Source: Pseudomonadota bacterium (GTDB lineage Bacteria > Pseudomonadota > Gammaproteobacteria > GCA-002705445 > GCA-002716945). From it: a stretch of 64,000 nucleotides of DNA. Under the pieces are notes generated by a model. The model was not told the DNA's origin, did not search any database, and saw nothing but the letters and a program-made list of their open reading frames with translations. Where the stretch lies: assembly GCA_036163455.1 (NCBI GenBank), contig JAYZKL010000018.1:3595-67594 (forward strand). Reading direction: 5' to 3'. Of this stretch, positions 1,806 to 59,645 are shown one piece after another. The position numbers and the translations under genes are program-made. How positions within the stretch are numbered: position 1 is the stretch's first letter; each line of letters opens with the position of its first letter.

Positions 1806-1819
1806 ATTCGGGGGAATTT

Positions 1820-3773: not shown

Positions 3774-3775
3774 AT

Positions 3776-5655: not shown

Positions 5656-5657
5656 TA

Positions 5658-6539: not shown

Positions 6540-6612
6540 AGATGGATTTTGCGCTCAAATTTGTGGTTGAAAATTAAAGCTTTAGGCCCGATAAATAACA
6601 CAGGAGATAATA

Positions 6613-7128
6613 ATGGCAGTAGTTGATAAAGTGTTAGTAGGTGAAGCTCTAGTTGTTACCGAAGGTGGCGACAATGAAATTTCACATATTGACCTATTAA
6701 TGGGTCCACGTGGATCAGCAGTTGAAGATGCGTTTTGTAATTCACTATGTAACAACAAAGATGGGTTTACATCTCTTTTAGCTGTAGTTGCACCTAACTT
6801 AGCTTGTAAACCAAGCACAGTTATGTTTAACAAAGTAACAATTAAAGGTGCTAAGCAAGCAGTTCAAATGTTTGGTCCTGCACAAGCAGCTGTAGCAAGA
6901 GCTGTAACTGATTGTGTTGAAGATGGAACAATACCAGAAAAAGAAGCAGAAGATATTTTCATCTGCGTTGGTGTATTTATCCACTGGGATGCAAGTGATG
7001 ATACTAGAATCTATGATTACAACTATGAAGCTACCAAAATGGCAATCAAAAATGCTGTTGCTGGTAAACCAAAAGCTGGAGAAGTTGTAGCAGGAAAATC
7101 TACACAACATCCATTTTCACCAAAATAA
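6613..7128 (+). CDS. fae: Formaldehyde-activating enzyme (5,6,7,8-tetrahydromethanopterin hydro-lyase)
   Basis: Strong similarity to Fae (VGEALV, HIDLxxGPRGS, [24 protein letters not shown], [30 protein letters not shown]). An AGGAGA SD sits 7 nt upstream. It appears monocistronic, with a terminator immediately downstream. Confidence 0.9.
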
Positions 7129-7142
7129 CAATTATGAGAATT

Positions 7143-7180
7143 GCCAACCGTGCTTTAAGCTCGGTTGGCTCTCTCTTTTA
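7143..7180 (+). terminator. Rho-independent terminator downstream of fae
   Basis: GCCAACCG(7143-7150), 11-nt loop, CGGTTGGC(7162-7169), followed by TCTCTCTTTT. The hairpin is GC-rich in an AT-rich background. Its 3' arm overlaps the last codons of the convergent gene 7155..7847. Confidence 0.55.
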
Positions 7181-7847
7181 GGAAACTAAATTTTCGAAGT
7201 TTATTCATAGATAATAAACTAGATACCAATACACCGCTTGCTCCAAGATTTTTTATAAACTTTATATCTAACATAGATCTAATTCCGCCAGCAACATAAT
7301 ATTCAGTTTTATATTTTTTTGTAATAAACTTTTTTATTATATGGAAGTTTGGTTTTGATTTTGTACCTACTCGTGATAAATCCATTATAATTACTTTTCT
7401 TGGATGCGTTCTTATGCATCTATGAATTGATTTTGGACCTATAATCCCATTTTTATAGTCTATGGAGCAAATATGTTTTTTAAACTTTTCTGAACTTAAT
7501 TCAAAATCTTTTGCTTTTTCACTACAAAATACTGGCACATAATTATTATAATTTTTATCTAGCTTGATTTTATTGAGGCCAGAGTCTATCCAAAAACTAA
7601 CTTTTGGAAATTTTTTTAATATTTGCATCAAAATATTATGATTAACTTTATCTGATATTATTGCGTCAAGATCAGCAATGTAGATTATTCTTGGAGAATA
7701 TATATCTATTAAATGAGTAATTATTTCAACAGGCTCTGTGGTATTGTATAGTTTGGGGTTTATTTTTTTATATGTGTTTCTATCGCCTTTTAAAGCTGTA
7801 ACTACTTGACTCTCTAATATGTCTATAACAGGAATGATGTCCATCAA
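7155..7847 (-). CDS. HisA/HisF-like (beta/alpha)8-barrel protein
   Basis: The N-terminus MMDIIPVIDILESQVV resembles the HisA/HisF start (IIPAIDLxxGxVVRL). It is embedded in the H4MPT island. Confidence 0.4.
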   Translation of the reverse strand: MMDIIPVIDILESQVVTALKGDRNTYKKINPKLYNTTEPVEIITHLIDIYSPRIIYIADLDAIISDKVNHNILMQILKKFPKVSFWIDSGLNKIKLDKNYNNYVPVFCSEKAKDFELSSEKFKKHICSIDYKNGIIGPKSIHRCIRTHPRKVIIMDLSRVGTKSKPNFHIIKKFITKKYKTEYYVAGGIRSMLDIKFIKNLGASGVLVSSLLSMNKLRKFSFLKERANRA

Positions 7848-8821
7848 TGATTAAGATACTAATATATGAATATGTTACAGGAGGTGGTTTGATAAATGAA
7901 GATTTAAGTTCAACTTTACTCAATGAAGCCAAATTAATTACATCAAACCTCTATAGCGATATGCGAGCATCGGATGGGGTTTCATTCAATTTTTTCTTAG
8001 ATGAAAGATTAAATAATCTTGTTACATCGGAATCAATCCTTATAAATAGAAAAAATATAAAAAAAATTTATGATAAAGACTTCCTAAAGAAATTTGACTA
8101 TATATTGCCAATACTGCCTGAAACAAATCTTGATTTATATAAGTATGTTAAATTTCTAGAAGAAAATAAAATAAATAAGATTATTTCAGATAAAAAAATA
8201 ATTTCTTTATTATCAAACAAATTATCTTTTTATAATTTTTTCATTAGTCATAATATAAATACAATACCAACATATGCTATTAATGACAGAAGAAAAATAA
8301 AAAAACTAAAAAACCTAATTGTTAAAGATAAATATGGAGCTGGATGTTCTTTTGTTAAAATCTTTAAGGGCCCATCTGACAAAGGTTTTTCTGGTTATAA
8401 TAATAATTATATCGTGCAACCCTATATTCATGGACAGTCATACAGCATATCGGCATTCTTTAGTAGAGATGATATATATTTATTGAGCATTAATAAACAA
8501 GATATAAAAATAAAACAAGGTTTCATTAAATTAAATAAAATTATTGTTAATGACAAAACTGTAGGTTGTACAAAAATATATGTTCTATTAGAAAGAATAA
8601 AATACATACTACCAAAACTATATGGATACATTGGCATAGATATAATAATTAATGATAAGGGCCTACATCTTGTAGAAATAAATCCAAGGTTGACAACTTC
8701 ATATATTGGATTAAGAGAGACTTTAGGAATTAATCTTGTTAATCTAATGATTGGAAAAAAAATAAAGAAAAGAATAGTTAGTGGAAAGAAATCCTGTATC
8801 AATTTAAATGAAACAAGATAA
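7847..8821 (+). CDS. ATP-grasp family protein (third paralog)
   Basis: C-terminal LVEINPRLTTS ATP-grasp motif. Confidence 0.45.
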   Translation: MIKILIYEYVTGGGLINEDLSSTLLNEAKLITSNLYSDMRASDGVSFNFFLDERLNNLVTSESILINRKNIKKIYDKDFLKKFDYILPILPETNLDLYKYVKFLEENKINKIISDKKIISLLSNKLSFYNFFISHNINTIPTYAINDRRKIKKLKNLIVKDKYGAGCSFVKIFKGPSDKGFSGYNNNYIVQPYIHGQSYSISAFFSRDDIYLLSINKQDIKIKQGFIKLNKIIVNDKTVGCTKIYVLLERIKYILPKLYGYIGIDIIINDKGLHLVEINPRLTTSYIGLRETLGINLVNLMIGKKIKKRIVSGKKSCINLNETR

Positions 8822-9860
8822 AACGAAAAATTTATATTTAGGTTGGGACATTGGTGGAGCACATACTAAATTATCTACAATAAAGCCTAACAGTTCTGCA
8901 TTTGATATATATAAGTGTCATTTATGGGAATCAACTAATCCATTAAAAAAAATTATCTCTTCTATTTGTGGAAAATATAAGAAAAAATTTAATGTAATAA
9001 ATATTATAACAATGTCAGGAGAGATGAGTGATATTTTTGAATCTAGGAGTAAAGGAGTTAAATATATTTTAAATATTTTTGATACTGTCAATAAAAACAA
9101 CTATGTATTCTCAATTAAGAAACCATTCTTCTTTAAACTTAGTAAGAGTATTAGTTCAGAATCTATATCATCAGCAAATTGGTTTGCTACGGCAAAGTTT
9201 CTTGAAACAAAAATAAATAATGCGATTGCGATTGATATTGGATCAACAACAACAGACATTATGCTTATAAAAGAAGGCAAGTGTATCAACAAAAATTATA
9301 GCGATCTTTTGAGACTACGATCTTCTGAATTGATATATATGGGCGTATTAAGAACACCAGTACACGCGGTTACAAAAGAGATACTGAGTCACCAAAAAAG
9401 GTTCCCTATAATTCCTGAAAATTTTTCTAATATGTCTGATGTATATAGTATTTTATCTGACATAAATCCTAAAATTGATTACTCAGAAAGTTGTGACCAC
9501 AAAAGTAAATCTTATAGAAATAGTTTGAGAAGACTCTCTCGCATATTGGGTTTTGACTATGAATCAAAAAATGAAAAAACAGTAATAAACTTAGCAAAAA
9601 AAATAAAGCTATCTCAAAAAGACTTTCTCACGAAAAAGATAAACAATCTATTACGAAAAAACTTCAAAAATGATAAATCGGTGAAAATTATTGGAATTGG
9701 AATAGGGAGTTTCCTAGTCGAGGAAATTGCTAAAAAAGTTAAGCTAAACTATAAAGACTTTAATAGCTTCTATCAAGATTATAATAAAAAATTATTCTTG
9801 CCATCAGATATTGCACCAGCTTACTCTATAAGTATGTTATTTAAATTAAGAAATGAATAG
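8808..9860 (+). CDS. ASKHA/hydantoinase-type ATPase-fold protein; resembles the conserved uncharacterised 'H4MPT-linked C1-transfer pathway' protein family
   Basis: N-terminal LGWDIGGAHTKL phosphate-1 motif and a second IAIDIGSTTTD motif, as expected for an actin-fold ATPase. It overlaps the upstream gene by 14 nt. Confidence 0.4.
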   Translation: MKQDKTKNLYLGWDIGGAHTKLSTIKPNSSAFDIYKCHLWESTNPLKKIISSICGKYKKKFNVINIITMSGEMSDIFESRSKGVKYILNIFDTVNKNNYVFSIKKPFFFKLSKSISSESISSANWFATAKFLETKINNAIAIDIGSTTTDIMLIKEGKCINKNYSDLLRLRSSELIYMGVLRTPVHAVTKEILSHQKRFPIIPENFSNMSDVYSILSDINPKIDYSESCDHKSKSYRNSLRRLSRILGFDYESKNEKTVINLAKKIKLSQKDFLTKKINNLLRKNFKNDKSVKIIGIGIGSFLVEEIAKKVKLNYKDFNSFYQDYNKKLFLPSDIAPAYSISMLFKLRNE

Positions 9861-11214
9861 AATAGAATTCGATTATTATAGCAATACTTCAGAAATTTTT
9901 GATTTTCTAAAAGATCAAGATTGGTCAGTTTTTCTATGTAGTAATTTTGATGTATTTGATACAGAAAAATATGACATTATTTCCTGTTGCCCAATTAAAA
10001 AAATTATAGCTTATCAGAATGCCACAATTGTTGAATTTAATGGTTCAAAAAAAGTTTTTAGAGATGATCCTATGGACGTGCTCAAGGACACAATGAAAGA
10101 ATCCTTTTCTAATAATTATACTGATTTACCTTTTTCTGGTGGTGCCATAGGTTATTTTTCATATGATTTAGGAAATAAATATGAATCTATCAAGTCTGTC
10201 AGCGCTGATTCTGATAATACTCCAATCATGGCATTTGGCATCTACGATTGGTCGATAATAATAGATCATAAATTAAAAAAATCAATTTTAATATATGAAG
10301 CTGAGAATGATTTGATTAAAGACATTATAAATAACTTTAAAAATAAAAAATTTGCAATGAAGAAAAAGAGAACTTTTTCAATTAATTCAAAGTACAGCTC
10401 TAATTTAAGTTATGAAGAATATGTTGAAAAATTTAATTCTATAAAGTCTTATATTGAAAAAGGAGATTGTTATCAGATAAATTTTGCACAACGATTTTCC
10501 CTTTCCTATGAGGGAGATACGTGGGAAATCTTTAAGAAGGTTTTGCAAAAATACAAAGCTCCGTATTCTTCGTATATGAATTTTCCATTTGTTAAAATTT
10601 TGAGTTACTCGCCTGAAAGATTTTTACAGATAGAAAATAATCATGTTGAAACAAAACCAATTAAAGGTACCAGACCGATACATGAGAATAAACAAAAAGA
10701 TATGCAATTAAAACAAGAACTTATTGACTCAAATAAAGATAAAGCAGAAAACTTAATGATAGTTGATCTATTAAGAAATGATTTAGGTAGAAACTGTAAT
10801 TTTGGCTCTATAAGGGTAAAAAAACTTTTTGAAATTGAAACTTTTTCGAATGTACATCACTTAGTTAGTACAATAGAGGGAAAAATATCTGATAAGAGTA
10901 ATATTTTTAAATTGATAAGAGATTGTTTCCCAGGCGGATCTATTACAGGTGCACCGAAAATACGTTCAATGCAAATAATTAATGAGCTTGAGTCAAATAG
11001 AAGAAGTATTTATTGTGGATCTATTGGTTATATTAGTTTTAACAATAAGGTGGATCTAAATATCGCTATCAGAACTATTATTGCAAATAAGAATTACCTC
11101 TATTTTTGGGGCGGAGGTGGCATAGTTTATGATTCAAATGTTAAGTCAGAGTTTCAAGAAACTATAGATAAGGTAAGCCCAATTATAAATGCTCTAAAAT
11201 CAGATAATACTTGA
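9853..11214 (+). CDS. pabB: Aminodeoxychorismate synthase component I-like (PabB/TrpE family), likely supplying the pABA moiety of methanopterin
   Basis: Chorismate-binding-enzyme motifs (IKGTRP, MIVDLLRNDLGR, FPGGSITGAPKIRSMQII, SIYCGSIGYI, GGGIVYDS). Confidence 0.65.
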   Translation: MNRIEFDYYSNTSEIFDFLKDQDWSVFLCSNFDVFDTEKYDIISCCPIKKIIAYQNATIVEFNGSKKVFRDDPMDVLKDTMKESFSNNYTDLPFSGGAIGYFSYDLGNKYESIKSVSADSDNTPIMAFGIYDWSIIIDHKLKKSILIYEAENDLIKDIINNFKNKKFAMKKKRTFSINSKYSSNLSYEEYVEKFNSIKSYIEKGDCYQINFAQRFSLSYEGDTWEIFKKVLQKYKAPYSSYMNFPFVKILSYSPERFLQIENNHVETKPIKGTRPIHENKQKDMQLKQELIDSNKDKAENLMIVDLLRNDLGRNCNFGSIRVKKLFEIETFSNVHHLVSTIEGKISDKSNIFKLIRDCFPGGSITGAPKIRSMQIINELESNRRSIYCGSIGYISFNNKVDLNIAIRTIIANKNYLYFWGGGGIVYDSNVKSEFQETIDKVSPIINALKSDNT

Positions 11215-11886
11215 GTTTATAGCTGATGAAACTTTTTTAAGTAGATTAAGATTAATCTCACTTCTATCAGCTTGATTCGAACATAATTGCCCTCGAAAAC
11301 CAAGAAAATCTGGATTGAATCTTTTCAGATTATTAATATCGCTAATCTTGAGCGAACCAGACAAACCGCAAAGAGTTTTATTTTTCTTAGTTATTGACAC
11401 AAATTTTTTAATTTCAGAGGGTTTGAGAATTTCAGTTAAAGATTTAGAGTTTTTATTAACAGTATCAATCATAATTCCTTGATAACCCATATTTATAATT
11501 TCTTCCAAAATATTCAGATCAAATGTTTTGTCTGCAAATAGTACACAAATAGGTTTTGTTTGAGCAAAGGAGAATTTTTGTAATAGTACTTTATGTTCAT
11601 CAATCATATTCTTATCAAATAGACCAATTTTTATATATTCAATTTCTTTATTAACAATTTTAGATAATATTGAAATAGTATTTGAATTATTTGGATTTGG
11701 ATTATTGCCTAAGGTCACACTTATTTTATGATGTTGTAGAGTTTTTTTTGCCTTATTGATAATGTCTAGTCCAACAAAACCAAGAGCCCCATCATCAACG
11801 TTTTTCAGATCAACAATATCTACTTTTGCATCAATAATTTTTTTTGCTTCCTCAATATTCTTAATACTTGCAAGAAAACCAGTCAT
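11200..11886 (-). CDS. mfnB: (5-formylfuran-3-yl)methyl phosphate synthase-like (MfnB/DUF556 family), methanofuran/methylofuran biosynthesis
   Basis: Aligns from memory with archaeal MfnB (VDIVDLKNVDDGALG vs ADIIDVKNPKEGSLGA; YIKIGLF vs YIKVGLY; GLSGSLKISDI...GFRGQLC vs ALAGSIKKEDI...GVRGAAC). Confidence 0.55.
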   Translation of the reverse strand: MTGFLASIKNIEEAKKIIDAKVDIVDLKNVDDGALGFVGLDIINKAKKTLQHHKISVTLGNNPNPNNSNTISILSKIVNKEIEYIKIGLFDKNMIDEHKVLLQKFSFAQTKPICVLFADKTFDLNILEEIINMGYQGIMIDTVNKNSKSLTEILKPSEIKKFVSITKKNKTLCGLSGSLKISDINNLKRFNPDFLGFRGQLCSNQADRSEINLNLLKKVSSAINSSII

Positions 11887-12443
11887 TTTTTTTCTCTATA
11901 ATTAGCAATTTTGTTTTCTATCCAATCCCATGCTTCTTTTTCTTTATCACCTGATGTTTTTTCTATACCTATTTTTAGATACTCAATCTCTTTTAAGATT
12001 TTTTCTAGAGATATACGTCCTAACCTACTAACTAATACAGAGGCTTCAATAACAGAGAATTGCGCCCTATTAAATCCTAAGAATGGTCTATGAATTTCTT
12101 TATTTAGAATCTCACAGATAACTTTAGGTCTAATTTCATCATCAATTGTTTCAGTCACAGAAATCTCATAATGAGAGTTTATATTCTCCAATCTTGGTAT
12201 ATCAACATTTTTAAGACTAATTAAAGGCCAGTCTTTTTTTATTCCGCAAATAATGCTTGCGAAAATCCTTACATCATCTGTAAAATTTATTACAGCTTTT
12301 TTTTGTGAAATTAAGTTCGCCAATGTTGTTGATGGCTTAAAGGGTGAAATAAAAACTTTTTCCTGGTCTATTTTAATCCCCATTGGCGCATTATGTACAT
12401 CGCCATCAATAGATTTAGTGGTTACTATTACTTCATGTATCAT
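11883..12443 (-). CDS. Conserved H4MPT-island protein (orf9/DUF447-like)
   Basis: Size, context and N-terminal (TTKSIDGDVHNAPMG) resemblance to the DUF447 proteins of methylotroph H4MPT clusters. Weak. Confidence 0.3.
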   Translation of the reverse strand: MIHEVIVTTKSIDGDVHNAPMGIKIDQEKVFISPFKPSTTLANLISQKKAVINFTDDVRIFASIICGIKKDWPLISLKNVDIPRLENINSHYEISVTETIDDEIRPKVICEILNKEIHRPFLGFNRAQFSVIEASVLVSRLGRISLEKILKEIEYLKIGIEKTSGDKEKEAWDWIENKIANYREKK

Positions 12444-13828
12444 TTCTTTTTATATGTTGGTCCAGCGGTTTTAAATGACATTTTATCATCTTCTTCCTTT
12501 TCTACTAAACATCCCCAAGATAATTCTTCATCTTGTGAATAGAATTTACCTAATTGATATGCAATCTGTGCTCTTGCTAACTCAACTCCAAGATAGAAAG
12601 CATGACCTGTATCATTATCTACATTTAAATTTTTGAAAAAATCAAAGGGATCTTTTGCCGTTTCAAACCCATCTCTATTAAAAACATGAATTCCTTTATC
12701 TGTGACCATTATTCTATAGCTAGGATCTTTAATATCTTTTGATAATTCTAAAACTTCATCATAAGAAAATTTAAAAGGTTTGTCTTCATGAGTAGTTAGC
12801 AAGTCATTACTAATATGTTTGGGCGTCATATTGCTCATACAAGATGCATGCAGTATTCTGCGTGCTATATCAGTTTCTTTTATAACTGTTTGACAATGAT
12901 CGCTAACCTGTGTTGTTAAAATATGGTTTATTTTTAATTCTGAAGCTATTCCCATCAATAATAGGGTAAGCCCTGTTGTATCTGCGTGTGATAATTCTGT
13001 TAAATTACCAGAACCCATCATGATATGTATATCCGGATATTTTTTTCTCAGTTCAGCATATCGTAAAATAGATTTTGTGAAACCAAAATTAATTGGGTCT
13101 AGGATAGAGTCAGCTATAAAAGTTCTTTTTTGTTGAATACATTTATCTATGATTTTATATAATTCATCTAATTTTCCATCCAGCGGGATAAGAATAGGGT
13201 ATGAGTCTACTTCATCTAAAATATAAAAATTGTCTGATTTTATACTTAGAAGATAATCTGCTCCTGCTTTACCTCCTCTAATCAGCTCATTATCATTATG
13301 AGAATCTACACTAACAAAAAAACCTAAACGCTTTAATTCTTGCACTGTTTCTTCTAGATGACCAAATTCAATATTTGGCAGACAACCGACATCTATTACA
13401 TCAGCACCATTATCTCTATAAAAGTTTGCTTGTTGTACAATCTGTTCTAGATTCATATTTGGTGCATCAGTAATTTCAGCAAAAATAGAAACTTCATATT
13501 GTGATAAATCATGCTTGAATGACTCTTTTCCAAATAAATTGGGTAGATCCTTGAGTTCTTCGGGCCCTCGAACGAAATCAACTTTTAATTTTTTAGATAA
13601 TATAGAGATATCGCCTCTAGTTCTTCCTGGAATTATGATCTTATCAAAGCTTGAGACATCACCGATTCTTCTTTCTATCATTTGTGTCGTTAATAATGAT
13701 GCAACACTAATATTTAGATTACGAATCTCGTAATCAAAAGGAAGTTCACCCATTTCATTTATAACTCTCTTCAAACTTCTTTCGGCAAGCTTTCCTGTAA
13801 TAAAAAGAATTTTTTCTTTCAACGCCAT
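12440..13828 (-). CDS. Dihydropteroate synthase-like (pterin-binding) protein fused to an N-terminal extra domain; methanopterin biosynthesis type
   Basis: Pterin-binding DHPS-like segment (GADVIDVGCLP, HILTTQVSD, MMGSGNLTE). Two-domain 462-aa architecture as in the orf19/MptH-like genes of H4MPT islands. Confidence 0.55.
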   Translation of the reverse strand: MALKEKILFITGKLAERSLKRVINEMGELPFDYEIRNLNISVASLLTTQMIERRIGDVSSFDKIIIPGRTRGDISILSKKLKVDFVRGPEELKDLPNLFGKESFKHDLSQYEVSIFAEITDAPNMNLEQIVQQANFYRDNGADVIDVGCLPNIEFGHLEETVQELKRLGFFVSVDSHNDNELIRGGKAGADYLLSIKSDNFYILDEVDSYPILIPLDGKLDELYKIIDKCIQQKRTFIADSILDPINFGFTKSILRYAELRKKYPDIHIMMGSGNLTELSHADTTGLTLLLMGIASELKINHILTTQVSDHCQTVIKETDIARRILHASCMSNMTPKHISNDLLTTHEDKPFKFSYDEVLELSKDIKDPSYRIMVTDKGIHVFNRDGFETAKDPFDFFKNLNVDNDTGHAFYLGVELARAQIAYQLGKFYSQDEELSWGCLVEKEEDDKMSFKTAGPTYKKK

Positions 13829-14352
13829 TTTTTAATTACTTTTTTTAGTTCATTAATATTTTTGACAACATCAGTATTTTTAAACTTCTTTAACAATTTA
13901 TAATTTTTAAGATCAATTTCTCTAGGATAAACAGTCACCATTTTGCCAGGGGCAGGTGTAATTATAACCGGTTCTGTATCACAGGCTAGTACAATTGAAT
14001 GAACATTACATTTACCAGCTTGCGCAAAAATATTTGATATTAAATTATCAGAAAACCCATATGCCATTTGAGCAACCGTATTTGATGTTGCTGGTGAAAC
14101 AATTAACACTTTATAAACATCTTCATAAAATAAGCTTACTGGAGCAGAACTTGCAGTTACATCTTTGAAAACCTTAATTTTATTTTTTTTAAGATCGCTC
14201 AACTTATAACCATACCATTTTAAGACTTCTTCTCCCGCTTTACTTAAGAATAAATCTATATTGTTCAAAGAATTAATAATTTCCATTGACTCTTTTAAAA
14301 AATGACCAGAACCTGTTATTGCCCAAGCTATTCTTTTATTTTTATTATTCAT
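13819..14352 (-). CDS. Flavoprotein of the HFCD/AfpA family (dihydromethanopterin reductase DmrB/AfpA-like)
   Basis: RIAWAITGSGHF... is an N-terminal flavin-binding motif typical of HFCD-family flavoproteins. Located in the methanopterin biosynthesis operon. Confidence 0.45.
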   Translation of the reverse strand: MNNKNKRIAWAITGSGHFLKESMEIINSLNNIDLFLSKAGEEVLKWYGYKLSDLKKNKIKVFKDVTASSAPVSLFYEDVYKVLIVSPATSNTVAQMAYGFSDNLISNIFAQAGKCNVHSIVLACDTEPVIITPAPGKMVTVYPREIDLKNYKLLKKFKNTDVVKNINELKKVIKKWR

Positions 14353-14959
14353 CTTTATTTAAAATATCTTTAATCTTTTCTTTATACTTATTTAAATCTT
14401 CCTTGTTGTTGATATTAATAAATAAATCTTTATTATTTTCAAAGTTAATAGTATTAACCGAACACAATTCAAACCATTTATCAATTTTTCTTTCTCCTGA
14501 ATCTAAAAATTTTTCAAGACTACCAAGTAAAGACTTTTTTATGAGACAATATACGGGTTGTAATCGTTCTCCATCAAATGCAACATTAATATCAGAATCA
14601 TCTTCTAATAATATCATTTTTTTGAAGTAAGATTCGTTAATAAATGGTCCATCACATGGTAAGGTAATTAGATATTCTGTATGCGATTCTTTTAAACCAG
14701 TATACATTCCAGCCAATGGTCCAAGATAACCACTCATTGAATCTACGCATACTTTGAAACCAAGGTTATTATAGATATCCAAATTTTTATTAGCATTAAC
14801 TAAAACATCAGTGCAATAAGTTTGAGATAAAGAACACAAGTGTTGGATTAAATATTTATCTTTAATCTTTATAAGGCCTTTATCAAGACCCTTCATTCTA
14901 GAGGATTTTCCACCAGCTAAAATTAAGGCAGTTAATTGATTTTTATCTATTTCAATCAT
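14345..14959 (-). CDS. mobA: Molybdenum cofactor guanylyltransferase
   Basis: LILAGGKSSRMKGLDKGLI N-terminal nucleotide-binding motif and LPCDGPF motif of MobA. Confidence 0.7.
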   Translation of the reverse strand: MIEIDKNQLTALILAGGKSSRMKGLDKGLIKIKDKYLIQHLCSLSQTYCTDVLVNANKNLDIYNNLGFKVCVDSMSGYLGPLAGMYTGLKESHTEYLITLPCDGPFINESYFKKMILLEDDSDINVAFDGERLQPVYCLIKKSLLGSLEKFLDSGERKIDKWFELCSVNTINFENNKDLFININNKEDLNKYKEKIKDILNKDE

Positions 14960-16816: not shown

Positions 16817-17147
16817 CGAGAGTCAGCAATGCAGTTGCTGCAAATTGCAGAGGAAAGTCCGGGCTCCATAGGCAAGAACGCCAGGTAACACCTGGGAAAC
16901 GTGAGTTTACGGAAAGTGCTACAGAAAATAACCGCCAGTATTTGGTAAGGGTGAAAAGGTGAGGTAAGAGCTCACCACGTATATGGTAACTAATACGGTT
17001 AGAGCAAACCCCGTTCGGAGCAAGGCAAATTTATAGCGTATGTCAGCCTAAGACTTGCTATGTGGTATGCTGCTTGAGGTTTTTGGTGACAAAAATCCTA
17101 GATTAATGACTGCACAAGACAGAACCCGGCTTATTTGCTGGCTCTCA
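16817..17147 (+). ncRNA. rnpB: RNase P RNA (bacterial type A, M1 RNA)
   Basis: Universal motifs GGAAAGTCCGGGCTCCATAGG, AGGTAACACCTGGG, ACAGAAAATAACCGCC, GGTAAGGGTGAAAAGGTGAGGTAAGAGCTCACC and ACAGAACCCGGCTTA. The P1 stem is formed by GCGAGAGTCAGCAA (16817-16829) pairing with TTGCTGGCTCTC (17135-17146). Confidence 0.9.
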
Positions 17148-17263
17148 GCCTATATTCTCATATAAAATTCACTATAAACTGATAAGTTATTGTTTATAAA
17201 CATATTAATCAAATATACTAAAAAACCCACTATATATAACCACAAAACTGCTTGTATTGATCC

Positions 17264-17336
17264 TTGCATATGTTAAAAAAAACACATATAGTGTTGATAA
17301 ATGGTGTTTTTTGTTAAATTGTGGAGAATAATGGTA
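17264..17336 (+). promoter_or_regulatory. Putative mraZ (Pmra) promoter plus MraZ-operator-like direct repeats
   Basis: TTGCAT (17264-17269), 17 nt, TATAGT (17287-17292). Then five TGNTG/TGGTN pentamers at 10-bp periodicity (17292, 17302, 17312, 17322, 17332), resembling the E. coli MraZ GTGGG-N5 direct repeats. Confidence 0.4.
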
Positions 17337-17339
17337 GAT

Positions 17340-17792
17340 ATGTTTAGAGGCATACATAATATAAATCTTGACGGTAAAGGTAGATTAGCTATACCAACTA
17401 AGTATAGAGCTGCTATTAATGACCAATCTTCTGGAAACATGATAATTACTGTCGATCCAGGGGAAAAATGCCTTCTACTTTATCCATTGTCTTCTTGGAA
17501 TGATATAGAGAAGCAAATCAACGACTTACCTGCTTTTCAGAAAAATTCACGTAGAGTACAAAGGCTGTTAGTTGGCCATGCCGAGGATATTCAAATGGAT
17601 AAGGCTGGAAGAATATTAATATCTCAACCTTTGAGATCTATAGCAGAACTAAGCAAAAAAATAACAATGATTGGGCAAGGAAAAAAATTTGAGATTTGGG
17701 GAAATAATATTTGGGAAAATAAAATATCAAAATGGAGAACTGAAGAAACTGATGAATCTGAAGAATCTGTTTTGGGAGGCATTAGAATCTAA
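17340..17792 (+). CDS. mraZ: Transcriptional regulator MraZ
   Basis: MFRGIHNINLDGKGRLAIPTKYR matches the MraZ N-terminus. I chose the internal ATG (MFRG) over the track's longest ORF start at 17301. Confidence 0.85.
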   Translation: MFRGIHNINLDGKGRLAIPTKYRAAINDQSSGNMIITVDPGEKCLLLYPLSSWNDIEKQINDLPAFQKNSRRVQRLLVGHAEDIQMDKAGRILISQPLRSIAELSKKITMIGQGKKFEIWGNNIWENKISKWRTEETDESEESVLGGIRI

Positions 17793-17989
17793 TGGATATT
17801 ACGAGATGTTTTAGAACATTAGGTATAAGTGGACATGAAGATTTAAGTGCAATCAAAAAGGCATTTCTCAAAGTTGCTTTAAAATATCACCCCGATAAAA
17901 CAAAAAATGATATCAATTTACTTCAAAGGTTTATAGAAGCACGTAACGCATATGACAGTATTGTCAAATTTAAAAAGGCGATTAAATGA
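17792..17989 (+). CDS. Stand-alone J-domain (DnaJ-like) mini-protein, 65 aa
   Basis: Canonical J-domain helices and the HPD motif (LKVALKYHPDKTKND...FIEARNAYDSI). The start overlaps the mraZ stop (TAATG) and the stop overlaps the rsmH start (ATGA). Confidence 0.6.
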   Translation: MDITRCFRTLGISGHEDLSAIKKAFLKVALKYHPDKTKNDINLLQRFIEARNAYDSIVKFKKAIK

Positions 17990-18933
17990 ATGATTTAGCT
18001 AAACATATACCAGTTATGCAAAATGAGGCACTAAATGCTCTAAACATACAAGAAGCTGGCATTTATGTTGATGCTACTTTTGGTTTTGGTGGACACTCAC
18101 AAGCCATATTAAATAAATTAAGTACAAGAGGAAGGCTTTATGCAATAGACAAAGATCCATCAACAATAAAAACCAATCAAACAGAATTTTTAGAAGATAC
18201 AAGGTTTACCCTGAAACATGGATGTTTCTCCTCTCTAGAATCCCTTTCAAAAGAGTGGGGAATCTATGGTTCAGTAAACGGTATATTATTTGACCTTGGT
18301 GTTTCAACTGAACATTTAGAAAACCCTAAAAGAGGATTCAGTTTTTTGAGGAAAGGGCCAATTGATATGCGGTTTGATCAGAGTTCAGGTGATTCTGCTA
18401 GTGATTGGCTTGCTACCGCAAGCGAAAGTACGTTAGCTACAATAATCAAAAAATATGGTGACGAACGTTATGCTAAAAGAATAGCAAAAGGTATTGTTAA
18501 GCAGAGGGTGACAGAAAAAATTAGTACTACTGCAGATTTAGTAAATATAATTAATAAATCTATACCAAAAAATGAAACAAAAAAACATAATGCAACACGT
18601 ACATTCCAAGCGATAAGAATACACATAAATCAAGAACTAGAAGTGCTTAGAAGGGCACTGGAAAAAACATATAATATTTTAGCTCCAAAAGGAAGATTAG
18701 TATTAATAACTTATCACTCGTTAGAAGAACGCTTAATAAAAGATTTTATAACTCATACAGATAAAAGTTTATCGGCGCCAAGAGACCTTCCTTTAAGTGA
18801 AAAGTTCCTGACAAAAATGTATAAAATAATAGCCAAGCCAATTAAACCAACATATGAAGAAATTAAAATTAATAAGAAATCTAGGTCAGCAAAATTAAAT
18901 ATTCTGGAGAAGTATAATGAGAATCATAGTTAA
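17986..18933 (+). CDS. rsmH: 16S rRNA (cytosine1402-N4)-methyltransferase
   Basis: HIPVM, YVDATFGFGGHS, FDLGVSxxQL and AIRIxxNxEL motifs of RsmH/MraW. Confidence 0.9.
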   Translation: MNDLAKHIPVMQNEALNALNIQEAGIYVDATFGFGGHSQAILNKLSTRGRLYAIDKDPSTIKTNQTEFLEDTRFTLKHGCFSSLESLSKEWGIYGSVNGILFDLGVSTEHLENPKRGFSFLRKGPIDMRFDQSSGDSASDWLATASESTLATIIKKYGDERYAKRIAKGIVKQRVTEKISTTADLVNIINKSIPKNETKKHNATRTFQAIRIHINQELEVLRRALEKTYNILAPKGRLVLITYHSLEERLIKDFITHTDKSLSAPRDLPLSEKFLTKMYKIIAKPIKPTYEEIKINKKSRSAKLNILEKYNENHS

Positions 18934-19186
18934 TATAACTATCTTATTTGTTATAGCTTTTTCATCTTTCTTAGTTATATATGTTAAGCATCAAAATAGA
19001 ATTATGAATATACAAATTGAGAGCGTAGAAAAGCAATTATCAATAAAAATTAATCAATATAAAGAATTGCTAAATGTTAAAACCACTCTATTGGAAAAAG
19101 AATTAATGAAAGAAGGTTTCAAAAAGAGTTTGGGTATGGATATACCTTCAAAGAATAGAATTATTTATTTAGATTTAGCTGAGTAG
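18917..19186 (+). CDS. ftsL: Cell division protein FtsL
   Basis: 89-aa bitopic protein with an N-terminal TM helix and a coiled-coil, sitting in the canonical position after rsmH. Confidence 0.7.
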   Translation: MRIIVNITILFVIAFSSFLVIYVKHQNRIMNIQIESVEKQLSIKINQYKELLNVKTTLLEKELMKEGFKKSLGMDIPSKNRIIYLDLAE

Positions 19187-19202: not shown

Positions 19203-20351
19203 ATGTTTGAGTTAATTGAAAATTATAGCCAGAATGCAGTGATTAAAGTCATTGGCGTTGGTGGCGGTGGCGGAAATGCTGTTCAATCAATGTTAGAGTC
19301 GAAGATTCATGGTGCTGAATTTATAGTAGCCAATACAGACGCTCAAGCATTGAATGACATAAAAGGAGCCACGACAGTACAATTAGGATCTGAAATTACA
19401 AAGGGACTTGGAGCAGGTGCTGATCCAGAAATAGGCAAACAAGCCGCAGAAGAAGATAGAGACAAAATACAAGATGCTATTCAAGGAGCTGATATGTTAT
19501 TTATTGCTGCTGGGATGGGAGGTGGTACTGGAACAGGTGCTGCGCCTGTTATAGCACAATGCGCACATGACATGGGCATCCTTACCGTTGCAGTAGTGAC
19601 AAAACCATTTGAATGGGAAGGAGTTGAAAGAAGACAACATGCTGATGATGGCATAGCAAAACTAGAGGATTGGGTTGATTCTCTAATTATTCTTCCAAAT
19701 TCTAAACTAGAAGAAGTATTTGGAACTGATGCACCAATTTTTGATGCATTCGGCCAAGCAAATGATGCTCTTCGAGGTGCAGTTAAAGGGATTGCTGAAA
19801 TAATAACCATCAGAGGCTTAATTAATGTTGATTTTGCAGATGTTAAAACTGTAATGTCAGGTAAAGGTAAAGCCATGATGGGCTCAGGTGTAGCAAGAGG
19901 CGAAGGTCGTTCAGAAGAAGCAGTGAAATTGGCTCTTAGTAGTCCATTACTAGAGAATATTGATCTACATGGAGCTAGTGGAGTGCTTGTTAATATAACT
20001 GCAGGTTCAGACTTATCTGTAAGTGAATATAATAGTATTGGAAACACTATTAAAGATATCGCGGCAGATGATGCGACAATCATTACAGGTTGTATTAAAG
20101 AAGAAGACGCAAGTGGTGAACTTAGAGTTACTATCATCGCGACTGGTTTTGATGAAAGTAAAGCATCTGATGAATCTGCTTTAGCTTCAACAACAGAAGA
20201 GAAACAATTAGAAAATCAGGTGATGCCATTAAGACCGGCTCAAGGAACTATGTTTGAAGATAAATCACCACAACTTTCAGATGAAAATTCTGAAAGTAAA
20301 GATGGAGATGATTTAGACATTCCTGCTTTTTTAAGGCAACAAGCTGATTAG
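19203..20351 (+). CDS. ftsZ: Cell division GTPase FtsZ
   Basis: Tubulin signature GGGTGTG, IKVIGVGGGGGNAV, and the conserved C-terminal peptide DIPAFLRQQAD. GGAGG SD upstream. The location between ftsL and ftsI is atypical. Confidence 0.95.
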   Translation: MFELIENYSQNAVIKVIGVGGGGGNAVQSMLESKIHGAEFIVANTDAQALNDIKGATTVQLGSEITKGLGAGADPEIGKQAAEEDRDKIQDAIQGADMLFIAAGMGGGTGTGAAPVIAQCAHDMGILTVAVVTKPFEWEGVERRQHADDGIAKLEDWVDSLIILPNSKLEEVFGTDAPIFDAFGQANDALRGAVKGIAEIITIRGLINVDFADVKTVMSGKGKAMMGSGVARGEGRSEEAVKLALSSPLLENIDLHGASGVLVNITAGSDLSVSEYNSIGNTIKDIAADDATIITGCIKEEDASGELRVTIIATGFDESKASDESALASTTEEKQLENQVMPLRPAQGTMFEDKSPQLSDENSESKDGDDLDIPAFLRQQAD

Positions 20352-20354
20352 AAA

Positions 20355-22094
20355 ATCATAGACAACAGCAGACAAAGCGCATGGCGGCAATATTTCATTT
20401 ACCTTATTGCCGCCGTTTTTTTTGTATTTATAATTACAAGAGTAATATTACTTCAAGTTTTTGATACTGACTGTTTTATTTTAAATAAAGATAAATGTAA
20501 AAATAATCTGAGCTCAGTTGCTGATAAGCGCCAAATTGTTGAAAGAGTAATTGATACAAGTCGTGGAACAATATTTGATAGAAATAAAGAAATTCTAGCA
20601 ATGAGTTTACCAAGAAATACATTATGCATAAACCCATATATGTTACATAAATTATCTAAAAAAGAGATAAATAGATATAAACAATTTCTAGAGTTGATTA
20701 AAACAGATAATAATAAATTTATAAAATTAATCAATAAATATAAACAGAGAAAAGAATTTTATCTTAAAAGAAAAATAAATGATGAGTTAGCTTCAAAAAT
20801 TAGTAAATTAGATTTACCTTTTGTATATTTTATAAAAGAATATCATCGTGTATATCTTGGTGGTGAGGCTTTTTCAAACATAATAGGTTTCACTAATATC
20901 GATGATATTGGTCAAGAGGGAATAGAATTATCAAAAAATGAATTACTCATTTCAAAAAAAGGCTTAAAAAAGATAAAAAAAGATAATTTAGGCAGATCAA
21001 TACAAACTCTTGAAATTGTTAAACAACCAATATCAGGAAAAGATATTTTCTTATCTTTGGATAAAAATATCCAGATAATTGGATATAATATTTTAAAAAA
21101 ATATGTTGAAAGATTCTCTGCAGATAGCGCATCCTTAATTCTTGTCAAAAATCAAACTGGAGAAATTATTTCTATGGTAAATTATCCATCATTTAATCCT
21201 GAATCTCGAAATCAAATGAAGGGTATTAACATAAAAAATAGAGTAGCTACAGAAGTTTTTGAGCCTGGGTCGACAATAAAACCTTTTATAATTCTTTCTG
21301 CTTTAAATACAAATACCATTGGTCTAGATGATTTTGTAGATACTACTCCAGGTATAATCAAAATTGGTGATAAGAAAATTAAGGATCCACGTAATTATGG
21401 GAGACTCACACTATCACAAATTATTGAAAAATCTAGTAATGTAGGAGCTGTTTTAGTATCCAGGAGTTTAAATAAAAAAGATTTATGGAACACTCTAACA
21501 TCTTTGCAGTTTGGACAGAATTTATATACGGGTTTTTCTGGAGAGCAATTTGGTGAACTTAATCATCATTCTCAATGGAAATCAGTCAATCAAGAAACTA
21601 TGGCGTATGGTTATGGAATTTCTACAACTCTTCTTCATTTATCAAGCGCATACTCTATTCTTGCAAATCATGGAAAGTCTATACAACTAACCTATCAGAA
21701 AGTTGAAAATGATGATGAAATCTATCAGGAAGATGTTATTGATCCAATATTATCAAAAGAGATATTAAAAATGATGATGCAAGTAGTTAAGAAAGGAACA
21801 GGTACCAAAGCATCCTTAGATAAGTATACGGTTGCTGGCAAGACAGGAACAGTTCAAATCTTAAAGGAACAAGGCTATACATCAGAAGAGCACAACACAT
21901 TATTTATAGGAGTAGTGCCAGCTACTAATCCACAGTATGTTGCTGCTATAATAGTCAGGAAGCCTGACCCAGGAAAAGGTAAGGCATCTGGTGGAAAAAA
22001 TGCTGCTCCAATTTTTAAAGAATTTATGAGTCAATCACTAAATCTTTTGAAGGTGTACCCAGATAAAAAAATAGTGAAAAATGAAAGAAAATAA
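20355..22094 (+). CDS. ftsI: Peptidoglycan D,D-transpeptidase FtsI (PBP3); start codon uncertain/non-canonical
   Basis: The track ORF starts at ATG 20601. However the conserved FtsI N-terminus (AWRQYFIYLIAAVFFVFIITRVILLQV...SRGTIFDRNKEILAMSLP, aligning to E. coli SWRFALL...GRVAWLQV...SRGMITDRSGRPLAVSVP) is encoded in frame upstream with no ATG/GTG/TTG. The frame is open back to the ftsZ TAG at 20349-20351. Candidate starts are ATC 20355 and ATA 20358. SxxK, SSN and KTGT transpeptidase motifs are present. Confidence 0.8.
   Translation: MIDNSRQSAWRQYFIYLIAAVFFVFIITRVILLQVFDTDCFILNKDKCKNNLSSVADKRQIVERVIDTSRGTIFDRNKEILAMSLPRNTLCINPYMLHKLSKKEINRYKQFLELIKTDNNKFIKLINKYKQRKEFYLKRKINDELASKISKLDLPFVYFIKEYHRVYLGGEAFSNIIGFTNIDDIGQEGIELSKNELLISKKGLKKIKKDNLGRSIQTLEIVKQPISGKDIFLSLDKNIQIIGYNILKKYVERFSADSASLILVKNQTGEIISMVNYPSFNPESRNQMKGINIKNRVATEVFEPGSTIKPFIILSALNTNTIGLDDFVDTTPGIIKIGDKKIKDPRNYGRLTLSQIIEKSSNVGAVLVSRSLNKKDLWNTLTSLQFGQNLYTGFSGEQFGELNHHSQWKSVNQETMAYGYGISTTLLHLSSAYSILANHGKSIQLTYQKVENDDEIYQEDVIDPILSKEILKMMMQVVKKGTGTKASLDKYTVAGKTGTVQILKEQGYTSEEHNTLFIGVVPATNPQYVAAIIVRKPDPGKGKASGGKNAAPIFKEFMSQSLNLLKVYPDKKIVKNERK
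20383..20423 (+). terminator. Intrinsic-terminator-like GC-rich hairpin plus T8, immediately after ftsZ and inside the ftsI 5' coding region
   Basis: GGCGGCAATA (20383-20392), 12-nt loop, TATTGCCGCC (20405-20414), G, TTTTTTTT (20416-20423). It encodes YLIAAVFF of the FtsI TM helix. Confidence 0.5.
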
Positions 22095-34575: not shown

Positions 34576-34679
34576 TACATTAATTTTGTCATAAATATAG
34601 GGGTATTTACTTATAATTTGGCTGTTTTTCCTTAACAAATATATTGAAAAACAATATACTTTATTAACTGCTTATAATT

Positions 34680-35872: not shown

Positions 35873-35949
35873 AAAAACCTAAAATTATTATATCATGATA
35901 AGCCAATAGGCAGTCTATATGTTAATATATATTTAACGCTAATATTTAA

Positions 35950-59156: not shown

Positions 59157-59171
59157 AGTAATTTTCCTCTG

Positions 59172-59636: not shown

Positions 59637-59645
59637 AATCGTTCC

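What the first reader, a model, noticed from the sequence alone, without database searches (positions are those of the whole stretch)
17792..17989. A 65-aa stand-alone J-domain gene wedged, translationally coupled, between mraZ and rsmH
mraZ and rsmH are normally directly adjacent at the head of the dcw operon. Here a complete J-domain with an HPD motif is inserted. It has a 1-nt overlap with mraZ (TAATG) and a 4-nt overlap with rsmH (ATGA), so it is expressed with the cell-division/cell-wall operon. A minimal DnaK-recruiting co-chaperone at this locus is, to my knowledge, not a described component of the dcw cluster. It could target Hsp70 to a division or ribosome-maturation client.
Basis: seen in the sequence. 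Interest (0 to 1): 0.55.

Follow-up and report, generated by a model that had tools for sequence, protein, structure and literature searches.

The report
Mini J-domain gene inside division operon
A real, strongly conserved 65-residue gene encoding a bare Hsp70-activating J-domain sits between mraZ and rsmH at the head of the cell-division operon in a whole lineage of uncultured AT-rich marine gammaproteobacteria; I found no prior description of this arrangement, and the protein's client is unknown.

Summary
Window 17792-17989 (+) encodes a 65-aa protein that passes the Pfam J-domain threshold (43.9 vs 27.8 bits) with HPD at residues 33-35. It overlaps the mraZ stop by 1 nt (TAATG) and the rsmH start by 4 nt (ATGA).

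It is not a one-off. About 146 sequence clusters of 62-66 aa form a discrete family. Every locus examined has the order mraZ-J-rsmH-ftsL-ftsZ-ftsI. In a metagenome scan MraZ was upstream in 57/57 loci and RsmH downstream in 71/71. dN/dS is 0.02-0.08, as tight as mraZ.

AlphaFold gives three helices (pLDDT 85). [quoted passage not shown] Helix IV and any client-binding domain are absent. The window's protein has L26 and T37 where DnaJ needs K/R26 and N37.

Most likely it is a J-domain-only (class C) DnaK co-chaperone made in fixed ratio with the dcw head genes. Its client is unknown; the 30S subunit/RsmH and FtsZ are guesses. I found no literature on it. It is a new family of a known kind in a new genomic context, and moderately interesting.

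The parts
17264..17339 (+). Putative operon promoter (TTGCAT 17264-17269, 17-nt spacer, TATAGT 17287-17292), followed by GTGTT/TGGTG/GTGGA/TGGTA repeats that resemble an MraZ operator, and the mraZ 5' leader
   Evidence: This block is nearly invariant in 11 of the 12 related loci aligned, while the sequence upstream of it diverges; the twelfth, L007, has an N-masked gap there. Promoter and operator function is inferred from conservation and resemblance to consensus only. The simple promoter scan did not list it, because the -35 hexamer matches only 3 of 6 positions.
17340..17792 (+). mraZ. The conserved start is MF[RK]G at 17340; the mechanical ORF call starts at 17301.
   Evidence: PF02381 at 116.5 bits and TIGR00242 at 153.9 bits. 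In L011 and L012 the upstream ATG is out of frame.
17792..17989 (+). The 65-aa J-domain-only gene (helices I-III plus HPD; no helix IV; no other domain)
   Evidence: PF00226 at 43.9 bits, cut-off 27.8. AlphaFold2 pLDDT 84.9 with three helices. Foldseek top hit is 5nro_B, the DnaJ J-domain bound to DnaK, at rmsd 1.1 Å over 50 residues. dN/dS is 0.023 against L008. Synteny is conserved.
17986..18933 (+). rsmH (16S rRNA m4C1402 methyltransferase); its start overlaps the J stop (ATGA)
   Evidence: PF01795 at 346.5 bits and TIGR00006 at 349 bits.
18917..19186 (+). ftsL
   Evidence: PF04999 at 23.3 bits, cut-off 22.9. Same position as in E. coli.
19203..20351 (+). ftsZ, relocated to between ftsL and ftsI. 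This is a second rearrangement shared by the whole clade, alongside the J gene.
   Evidence: Tubulin and FtsZ_C domains. ftsA at 33322-34575 is followed directly by lpxC. FtsZ lies after rsmH-ftsL in 43/43 metagenome loci with enough flank.
20352..22094 (+). ftsI. The first canonical start is at 20601, but the frame is open from 20352 and that stretch encodes the transmembrane anchor.
   Evidence: PBP_dimer and Transpeptidase domains. Upstream reading frame shown.

Best explanation
The ORF is a real protein-coding cistron of the dcw operon. It encodes a minimal class-C (J-domain-only) Hsp70 co-chaperone.

Shown:
- It has the J fold (helix I, the antiparallel helix II/III hairpin, and the HPD loop).
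- It is under strong purifying selection.
- It is fixed between mraZ and rsmH, with junctions of -8 to +3 nt, in every member of a deep, uncultured, roughly 30%-GC marine gammaproteobacterial lineage.
- There is no internal promoter, terminator or compositional break.

Inferred:
- It is transcribed from the conserved promoter block upstream of mraZ and translated by coupling. It would then be made in a fixed ratio with MraZ and RsmH.
- It docks through HPD, basic helix II and F47 onto the NBD-linker groove of the cell's DnaK and triggers ATP hydrolysis, as the DnaJ J-domain does in PDB 5NRO.
- Having no client-binding domain, it cannot deliver unfolded clients as DnaJ does. It would either act in trans, clamping DnaK onto whatever DnaK already holds, or be positioned through its family-specific surface. 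That surface is strongly basic: R/K8, K/R51, an aromatic residue at 60, K/R61, K62; net charge +7.

My best guess for the partner is the late 30S subunit on which RsmH acts (about 0.3). FtsZ or the divisome is second (about 0.2). The confidence given is for the general statement (a genuine Hsp70-directed J-domain cistron of the dcw operon), not for either partner.
For: Domain and fold:
- Pfam DnaJ above threshold.
- Closest solved sequences are E. coli DnaJ J-domains.
- AlphaFold2 model at pLDDT 84.9.
- All 50 Foldseek PDB hits listed contain a J-domain; the top hit is 5nro_B, the J-domain in complex with DnaK, with TM 0.71/0.73.

Functional residues: L10, I21, A29, H33, P34, D35, Y54 and I57 are invariant, and K22, K31, Y32, K36, F47 (99%) and A53 (97%) nearly so, across 144 family members. 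H33, D35 and F47 are among the residues reported to contact DnaK R167/E217/L391/L392 (PMC13012618).

Selection: dN/dS is 0.023 (window vs L008), 0.039, 0.047 and 0.075 in other close pairs. This compares with 0.018 for mraZ and 0.118 for rsmH.

Synteny:
- 7/7 related genomes carry it.
- All of the 60%-identity sub-clusters looked up share the context: 9 of 12, holding 143 of the 146 sequences; the other three hold one sequence each.
- MraZ is upstream in 57/57 and RsmH downstream in 71/71 metagenome loci.
- Junction overlaps are conserved but vary in type, so these are separate coupled cistrons and not a frameshift fusion (and the gene tables).

Local signals: no promoter or terminator consensus lies in the J gene or at either of its junctions (two weak 9-of-12 matches fall inside the mraZ and rsmH coding sequences), GC is 0.30 like the flanks, and no flanking repeats. 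A conserved promoter/operator-like block lies upstream of mraZ.

Charge: +7, ranking 2nd of 63 window genes per residue. The E. coli J-domain is +1.

Helix IV: reported as not essential for DnaJ co-chaperone function (PMC1906734).
Against: - No biochemical or expression data exist.
- Position 26 is L in the window's protein and M/L/I in about half of the family. Y25 and K/R26 are reported as required in E. coli DnaJ and several other J-domains.
- Position 37 is T in the window's sub-clade, against N in the HPD-R/K-N pentapeptide.
- The KFK motif is R-F-I here.
- Presence of dnaK, dnaJ and grpE in these genomes was not verified. I assume it because DnaK is near-universal in Gammaproteobacteria.
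- Lys-richness is partly a by-product of the AT-rich genome. The background mean charge is also positive and the z-score is only 1.8.
- The client assignment rests on gene neighbourhood alone.
Confidence: 0.6

Rival explanations
1. It is a DnaK modulator or competitor and not a targeting factor. A free J-domain made from the dcw operon would occupy the J-site on DnaK. That would tune DnaJ-dependent functions such as sigma-32 control or general folding capacity in proportion to growth and division gene expression. The phage protein Rki similarly competes with DnaJ and stabilises sigma-32.
For: - There is no client-binding domain at all; 65 aa, with a domain match to the J-domain alone.
- The DnaK-facing residues are altered (L26, T37, I48), which could give binding without full activation.
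- Precedent: Rki of phage RB43 interacts with DnaK, shows no generic co-chaperone function, and may compete with DnaJ (PMC3486835).
Against: - Rki needs its 160-aa C-terminal domain for its effect. This protein has none.
- The fixed position between mraZ and rsmH over deep divergence (RsmH down to about 50% identity) suggests a link to those particular genes and not a global role.
- Family-specific conserved surface residues lie away from the DnaK face: R/K8, E16, D17, K/R61.
Confidence: 0.2
2. It recruits DnaK to the divisome. The J protein and the relocated ftsZ would form a functional pair, with DnaK recruited to remodel FtsZ polymers or assemble FtsL/FtsI.
For: The J gene and the relocation of ftsZ to the ftsL-ftsI slot co-occur in every locus seen (43/43). 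From my own knowledge, not checked here: E. coli dnaK mutants filament.
Against: - The two rearrangements cannot be separated phylogenetically with the data in hand, so their co-occurrence may be simple shared ancestry.
- J is coupled to mraZ and rsmH, not to ftsZ, which lies two genes downstream.
- No interaction evidence.
Confidence: 0.15
3. It is a J-fold repurposed independently of Hsp70. The small basic helical protein would act as a structural partner of MraZ, RsmH, DNA or RNA, retaining HPD for structural reasons.
For: The residues at positions 26, 37 and 48 are non-canonical in the window's sub-clade. The protein is strongly basic.
Against: - H, P and D are each 100% conserved in 144 sequences spanning 36-94% identity.
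- HPD has no known role other than Hsp70 activation, and altering it always abolishes Hsp70 interaction (PMC1906734).
- The deeper sub-clusters keep K/R26-K/R27 as in DnaJ.
Confidence: 0.08
4. It is a spurious or decaying ORF, such as a remnant of a dnaJ 5' fragment, a mis-called N-terminal extension of rsmH, or a conserved RNA or regulatory element.
For: It is very short. Databases label it 'hypothetical protein'.
Against: - dN/dS is 0.02-0.08 with synonymous sites near saturation.
- Length is constant at 62-66 aa, with intact start and stop, in about 146 clusters.
- Junction types vary (-8 to +3 nt), which rules out a conserved frameshift fusion (and the gene tables).
- No Rfam family matches there.
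- No J-RsmH fusion was found among the 10 longer outgroup hits (271-411 aa) scanned for domains.
Confidence: 0.01

Closest known systems
J-domain of E. coli DnaJ (class A JDP; PDB 1XBL, 1BQZ, and 5NRO in complex with DnaK)
   Same: Identical residue numbering. Shares HPD at 33-35, K22, K23, K27, A29, K31, Y32, K/R36, F47, A53 and Y54. Helices I-III superpose at 1.1 Å over 50 residues.
   Different: Helix IV with its QKRAA motif, the G/F region, the zinc-finger domain and the C-terminal client-binding and dimerisation domains are all absent. NCBIfam DnaJ models score 36-38 bits against cut-offs of 338-377. It has L26, T37 and I48 in place of K26, N37 and K48. Net charge is +7 against +1.
J-domain-only (class C) JDPs as a catalogued category
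   Same: The architecture is a J-domain and nothing else. About 100,483 such 'JD-only' sequences were counted among roughly 280,000 JDPs (PMC10410713). Bacterial class C JDPs are reported from 54 aa upward (PMC8215388).
   Different: This is a discrete family, separated by about 100+ bits against 60-70 bits from the generic J-domain continuum. Its genomic slot in the dcw operon is invariant. Within the limits of the library searched, I found no description of that.
Canonical dcw cluster (E. coli mraZ-rsmH-ftsL-ftsI-murE...ftsA-ftsZ-lpxC)
   Same: Same genes, orientation and order from mraZ to lpxC and secA, with tight or overlapping junctions.
   Different: There is an extra J cistron between mraZ and rsmH. 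ftsZ has moved to between ftsL and ftsI. murB is present between murC and ddl. rnpB lies directly upstream.
Rki of phage RB43 (specialised J-protein that modulates DnaK and sigma-32)
   Same: A J-domain protein with no generic chaperone function and a poorly conserved helix IV. It is a precedent for a J-protein that modulates DnaK instead of delivering clients (PMC3486835).
   Different: Rki is 237 aa with a required C-terminal domain and is phage-encoded. No close relative of the present family was found in IMG/VR viral contigs, where the best hit is at most 47% identical over the full-length matches (one shorter segment covering residues 1-38 reaches 55%) and generic.
ActJ cold-adaptation protein (NCBIfam NF050028, 93-position profile)
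   Same: A small bacterial protein with a J-domain. It gives a weak N-terminal match over residues 6-39.
   Different: It scores 22.8 bits against a cut-off of 150, so this protein is not a member.

Membership tests
J-domain (Pfam PF00226) superfamily | Sequence profile match above the curated threshold | tested here: met
   43.9 bits against a cut-off of 27.8; E = 2.6e-11.
J-domain (Pfam PF00226) superfamily | [quoted passage not shown] | tested here: met
   H33-P34-D35. Each residue is 100% conserved in 144 family sequences. The loop position is confirmed in the model: helix II spans 18-31 and helix III spans 41-64.
J-domain (Pfam PF00226) superfamily | Antiparallel helix II/III hairpin with helix I packed on it | tested here: met
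   AlphaFold2 pLDDT 84.9. The top 50 Foldseek PDB hits all contain a J-domain. The best is 5nro_B at rmsd 1.1 Å over 50 residues.
J-domain (Pfam PF00226) superfamily | Helix IV (typical of the canonical four-helix domain, though reported as non-essential for DnaJ function) | tested here: not met
   The protein ends at residue 65. The Pfam alignment stops at profile position 52 of 63. The model shows helix III continuing to residue 64. Non-essentiality is reported in PMC1906734.
J-domain (Pfam PF00226) superfamily | DnaK-contact residues Y25, K/R26, R/K36-N37 and F47 | tested here: inconclusive
   The window's protein has F25, L26, K36, T37 and F47. Across the family, position 26 is M 47%, K 33%, R 12%, and position 37 is N 86%. 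Their importance is reported.
J-domain (Pfam PF00226) superfamily | Stimulates ATP hydrolysis by a partner Hsp70 | not testable with these tools
   This needs a biochemical assay.
J-domain (Pfam PF00226) superfamily | A partner Hsp70 (dnaK) is encoded in the same genome | not tested
   No dnaK lies in the 64-kb window.
DnaJ proper (class A; TIGR02349 / PRK10767), CbpA, DjlA | Full-length equivalog score; G/F region, zinc finger and C-terminal domains (or the CbpA/DjlA-specific regions) | tested here: not met
   Scores are 38.5 vs 338, 36.1 vs 377.2, 23.5 vs 403 (CbpA) and 20.8 vs 162 (DjlA). Only the J part aligns.
ActJ (NF050028) | Equivalog score of at least 150 bits | tested here: not met
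   22.8 bits.
dcw (division and cell wall) gene cluster component | Same strand, no intergenic gap, and a conserved position inside the cluster across related genomes | tested here: met
   Junctions range from -8 to +3 nt. MraZ is upstream in 57/57 loci and RsmH downstream in 71/71 loci. All 7 related genomes carry it.
dcw (division and cell wall) gene cluster component | Co-transcription with the cluster | not testable with these tools
   Inferred only. There are no internal promoter or terminator matches, and a conserved promoter-like block lies upstream of mraZ.

The most novel reading that the evidence does not exclude
An Hsp70 co-chaperone is an integral, stoichiometrically coupled component of the dcw operon head. 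The bare, highly basic J-domain would dock on the RsmH substrate (the late 30S subunit) or on FtsZ and fire DnaK there. This would give a direct mechanistic link between chaperone power, ribosome maturation and cell division. It would also give a new handle on the old puzzle of why mraZ and rsmH head the division operon.
Probability: 0.2. Interest if true: 0.7.

Novelty: new member of a known kind. Interest (0 to 1): 0.42.

Why it matters
The role of mraZ and rsmH at the head of the division/cell-wall operon is still poorly understood. A third, tightly coupled gene at that spot whose only recognisable activity is switching on Hsp70 is a concrete and testable clue. It is conserved across an abundant marine lineage. 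It suggests that chaperone action is wired to the expression of these genes.

It is also a natural example of the smallest J-domain that evolution keeps: helices I-III plus HPD, with no helix IV. That is useful for defining the minimal Hsp70-activating module.

Its limits are clear. The lineage is uncultured, J-domain-only proteins are common as a class, and no function has been shown.

Tried and rejected
1. Phage or mobile origin. An IMG/VR scan with the family alignment found only generic J-domains at 47% identity or less over the full-length matches. PHROGs matches are weak and generic. There are no flanking repeats and no GC anomaly.

2. J-RsmH fusion or frameshift. None of the 10 longer outgroup hits (271-411 aa) scanned for domains has Methyltransf_5. 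Junction types vary between lineages.

3. Non-coding explanation. No Rfam hit lies in the region, and dN/dS shows protein-level selection.

4. Metagenome proteins P0089-P0093 looked like longer relatives. They are chimeras of a DnaJ-type N-terminus and this family's C-terminus joined at KYHPDKN, which is an assembly artefact.

5. Membership in ActJ, DjlA, CbpA or DnaJ fails. All score far below their cut-offs.

6. Naming the lineage did not succeed. Source labels say only 'Gammaproteobacteria bacterium', 'Pseudomonadota bacterium' or 'uncultured Ectothiorhodospiraceae bacterium'. The sox genes plus H4MPT-linked formaldehyde oxidation genes in the window fit a SUP05/Arctic96BD-19-like sulfur oxidiser, but literature searches did not settle this.

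7. I could not find the sister group that lacks the gene. The one genome-collection scan returned only clade members, then very distant RsmH (39% identity or less).

8. The afdb50 fold library was unavailable. Genevaux et al. 2002 (PMC1462316) is not held, so I cite it through PMC1906734.
Full report
**1. The observation**

Window 17792-17989 (+) is an ATG-to-TGA ORF of 65 codons. Its product matches the Pfam J-domain PF00226 at 43.9 bits (cut-off 27.8, E = 2.6e-11) over residues 6-56, which align to profile positions 2-52 of 63. The HPD tripeptide is at residues 33-35, in the same register as E. coli DnaJ.

The upstream gene is mraZ (TIGR00242, 153.9 bits) and the downstream gene is rsmH (TIGR00006, 349 bits). 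The stated overlaps are exact. TAATG joins mraZ to J, and ATGA joins J to rsmH.

No ORF of 30 aa or more lies on the opposite strand inside the gene. No Rfam family matches there. GC is 0.30, like the flanks. No promoter or terminator consensus lies inside the J gene or at its junctions; two weak promoter-like matches fall within the mraZ and rsmH coding sequences. No repeats flank the gene.

**2. It is a conserved gene, not an accident of one genome**

- A word-seeded search found seven close homologues at 65-94% identity.
- A profile of orthologues found about 88 more clusters of 60-66 aa scoring above 100 bits. Scores then drop sharply to 66 bits or less for ordinary DnaJ N-termini.
- A second profile, built from the most divergent small members, added about 70 clusters.
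- An exhaustive HMMER search of 1.84 billion representatives found 57,108 J-domain proteins at E ≤ 0.001. Only about eight 50%-identity clusters scored above 75 bits. Most are 64-66 aa; the exceptions are a truncated 53-aa copy, an 86-aa call with an N-terminal extension and a 106-aa misassembly.

The family is therefore discrete. After removing fragments, 146 sequences of 60-67 aa with HPD fall into 12 sub-clusters at 60% identity. These are 36-94% identical to the window's protein.

**3. Its genomic position is invariant**

- A genome-collection scan with the window's RsmH returned seven related species-level MAGs. Their RsmH identity is 61-82%, their GC is 28-32%, and they are labelled only as Gammaproteobacteria or 'uncultured Ectothiorhodospiraceae'. 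All seven have a 65-66-aa J gene between mraZ and rsmH.
- Contig look-ups covered nine of the twelve sub-clusters, which hold 143 of the 146 sequences. All gave the same order: Dus, a methyltransferase, mraZ, J, rsmH, ftsL, ftsZ, ftsI, murE and so on.
- A family-specific degenerate DNA pattern scanned over the metagenome collection gave 77 loci. Of these, 75 are the 63-66-aa gene and 2 are unrelated long J-proteins.
- Among the 75, MraZ lies directly upstream in 57 of 57 loci with enough flank. RsmH lies directly downstream in 71 of 71. FtsZ follows rsmH-ftsL in 43 of 43.
- RsmH identity to the window falls to about 50% in the most distant lineages, so the arrangement is old.
- Junctions are always tight but differ in type: TAATG, ATGA, GTGA, an 8-nt overlap, or 0-3-nt gaps (gene tables). 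This fits separately translated, coupled cistrons and argues against a programmed frameshift fusion.
- For reference, in E. coli K-12 mraZ and rsmH are adjacent with a 1-nt gap, and ftsZ follows ftsA.

**4. It is under protein-level selection**

Nei-Gojobori estimates for close pairs are as follows.

| Pair | dN/dS |
|---|---|
| window vs L008 (dN 0.023, dS 1.0) | 0.023 |
| L010 vs L030 | 0.039 |
| L032 vs L034 | 0.047 |
| L011 vs L012 | 0.075 |

More distant pairs are saturated at synonymous sites. In the window-L008 pair, the J gene (0.023) is as constrained as mraZ (0.018). It is more constrained than ftsL (0.044) or rsmH (0.118).

**5. Structure**

AlphaFold2 with a 25-sequence family alignment gives pLDDT 84.9 and pTM 0.68. 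The model has helices at 3-10, 18-31 and 41-64.

All 50 Foldseek PDB hits listed contain a J-domain. [quoted passage not shown] By sequence, the closest solved chains are also E. coli DnaJ J-domains.

There is no room for a helix IV. Only eight residues follow I57, and they extend helix III. Helix IV has been reported as not essential for DnaJ co-chaperone function (Genevaux et al. 2002, as summarised in PMC1906734).

**6. Residues**

Eight positions are invariant across 144 members: L10, I21, A29, H33, P34, D35, Y54 and I57. K22, K31, Y32, K36 and F47 are 99% conserved and A53 97%. H33, D35 and F47 are among the J-domain residues reported to contact DnaK R167, E217, L391 and L392 (PMC13012618).

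Two points weaken a fully canonical reading.
- Position 26 is K/R in generic J-domains, and its substitution inactivates several of them. Here it is L in the window's protein and M/L/I in roughly half of the family. The deeper sub-clusters keep K/R26-K/R27.
- Position 37 is N in 86% of the family but T in the window's sub-clade.

Family-specific conserved features, with the generic residue in brackets, are R/K8 (E), E16 (A), D17, I48 (K), K/R51, a hydrophobic residue at 58, an aromatic residue at 60, and K/R61 (E).

Net charge is +7. The family median is +5 and the E. coli J-domain is +1. Per residue this is the second most basic of 63 window genes. The background of this AT-rich genome is itself positive, so the z-score is only 1.8.

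**7. Expression context**

A block from TTGCAT (17264-17269), across a 17-nt spacer, to TATAGT (17287-17292), followed by GTGTT/TGGTG/GTGGA/TGGTA repeats up to the mraZ start, is almost invariant in 11 of the 12 related loci aligned; in the twelfth (L007) it is interrupted by an N-masked gap. Sequence further upstream is not conserved.

I read this block as the operon promoter with an MraZ-type operator. That reading rests on conservation and resemblance to consensus and is not proven. With the overlapping junctions and no internal signals, the simplest model is that the J protein is co-transcribed and translationally coupled with MraZ and RsmH.

**8. What it most likely does**

Shown: it is a bona fide J fold with an invariant HPD, under strong selection, hard-wired into the head of the dcw operon.

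Inferred: it binds the lineage's DnaK as DnaJ's J-domain does and triggers ATP hydrolysis.

It has no client-binding domain. It can therefore only act in trans on DnaK-substrate complexes or be positioned through its own basic, family-specific surface. Candidate partners come from gene neighbourhood only.
- The late 30S subunit on which RsmH acts. The basic charge fits this, as does (from my own knowledge, not checked here) the reported help of DnaK/DnaJ in 30S assembly.
- FtsZ, whose gene has moved into the same operon segment in every member.

Rivals are a DnaK-titrating regulator by analogy with phage Rki (PMC3486835), an Hsp70-independent role, and a spurious ORF. The last is excluded by the selection data.

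I could not verify that dnaK is present in these genomes. It is not in the 64-kb window.

**9. Comparison with what is known**

J-domain-only proteins are a large catalogued class. About 100,000 of roughly 280,000 JDPs are of this type (PMC10410713). Bacterial class C JDPs start at 54 aa (PMC8215388). E. coli has six JDPs and none lies in the dcw cluster.

Full-text searches for J-domain with mraZ, and for dcw cluster with DnaJ, returned nothing relevant. Source annotations call the protein 'hypothetical protein', 'DnaJ domain-containing protein' or 'molecular chaperone DnaJ'.

It is not DnaJ, CbpA, DjlA or ActJ by NCBIfam cut-offs. It has no close viral relative.

I file it as a new family within a known kind, the class C J-domain-only co-chaperones. 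Its genomic context is new.

**10. Organism**

The window carries the following.
- An H4MPT-linked formaldehyde-oxidation module (fae, mch, mtdB-like) and its cofactor genes.
- soxXYZA-type genes.
- rnpB directly upstream of mraZ.
- Overall GC near 30%.

The J gene and the start of rsmH are identical to those on Tara Oceans contig CEOQ01281018.1 (L194). This fits an uncultured marine sulfur-oxidising gammaproteobacterium of the SUP05/Arctic96BD-19 type. I could not confirm the taxon.

**11. Verdict**

Novelty is modest in kind but real in context. Interest is 0.42.

Noticed in passing
window 19203-20351 (ftsZ); 33322-35606 (ftsA, lpxC): ftsZ sits between ftsL and ftsI and not after ftsA, and ftsA is followed directly by lpxC. 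The same order occurs in every related locus (43/43 metagenome loci with enough flank). It is therefore a second clade-wide rearrangement of the dcw cluster that always co-occurs with the J gene.
   Followed up: partly
window 20352-20600 (upstream of the ftsI ORF call at 20601): The FtsI transmembrane anchor (WRQYFIYLIAAVFFVFIITRVILL) is encoded in a frame that opens at the codon right after the ftsZ TAG, in the same frame as ftsZ. There is no ATG, GTG or TTG before 20601. L008 and L009 show the same (TAG/TAA AAA AT[CT] ATA...). L034 and L010 also lack a canonical start and have a CTG candidate. L011 and L037 have ATG. This suggests a non-canonical start codon or termination-reinitiation after ftsZ.
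   Followed up: partly
window 17264-17339: A promoter-like TTGCAT-17 nt-TATAGT, followed by GTGTT/TGGTG/GTGGA/TGGTA repeats, is almost invariant in 11 of the 12 related loci aligned. It is probably Pmra with an MraZ operator. The 163-aa mraZ ORF call (start 17301) runs through this block, and the conserved start is MF[RK]G at 17340.
   Followed up: partly
window 16819-17149: The RNase P RNA gene (rnpB, Rfam RF00010, 293.6 bits) lies directly upstream of mraZ.
   Followed up: no
window 843-14959: A block for H4MPT-linked formaldehyde oxidation (Fae, MCH, Mpt_N/MtdB-like) plus methanopterin/methanofuran-type cofactor biosynthesis genes (4HFCP synthase, DUF447, DUF6513, ATP-grasp, CitG-like). The part nearest mraZ (4HFCP synthase, DUF447, DUF6513, flavoprotein, NTP transferase) is syntenic with the dcw cluster in the related loci with enough upstream flank.
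   Followed up: no
window 57988-59981: soxA/soxZ/soxY and c-type cytochrome genes, so the organism is probably a sulfur oxidiser. There is also a sulphur-transport protein at 56132-57331.
   Followed up: no
proteins P0089-P0093 (metagenome gene calls, not in the window): These are chimeric proteins. A DnaJ-type N-terminus is joined at KYHPDKN to the C-terminal half of this small-J family. They are assembly artefacts caused by the shared HPD-region sequence and could mislead homology searches.
   Followed up: partly
window 35606-35950 (between lpxC and secA): No secM-like ORF lies between lpxC and secA, unlike in E. coli. Among ORFs of 100 aa or more, secA follows lpxC after a 343-nt gap.
   Followed up: no
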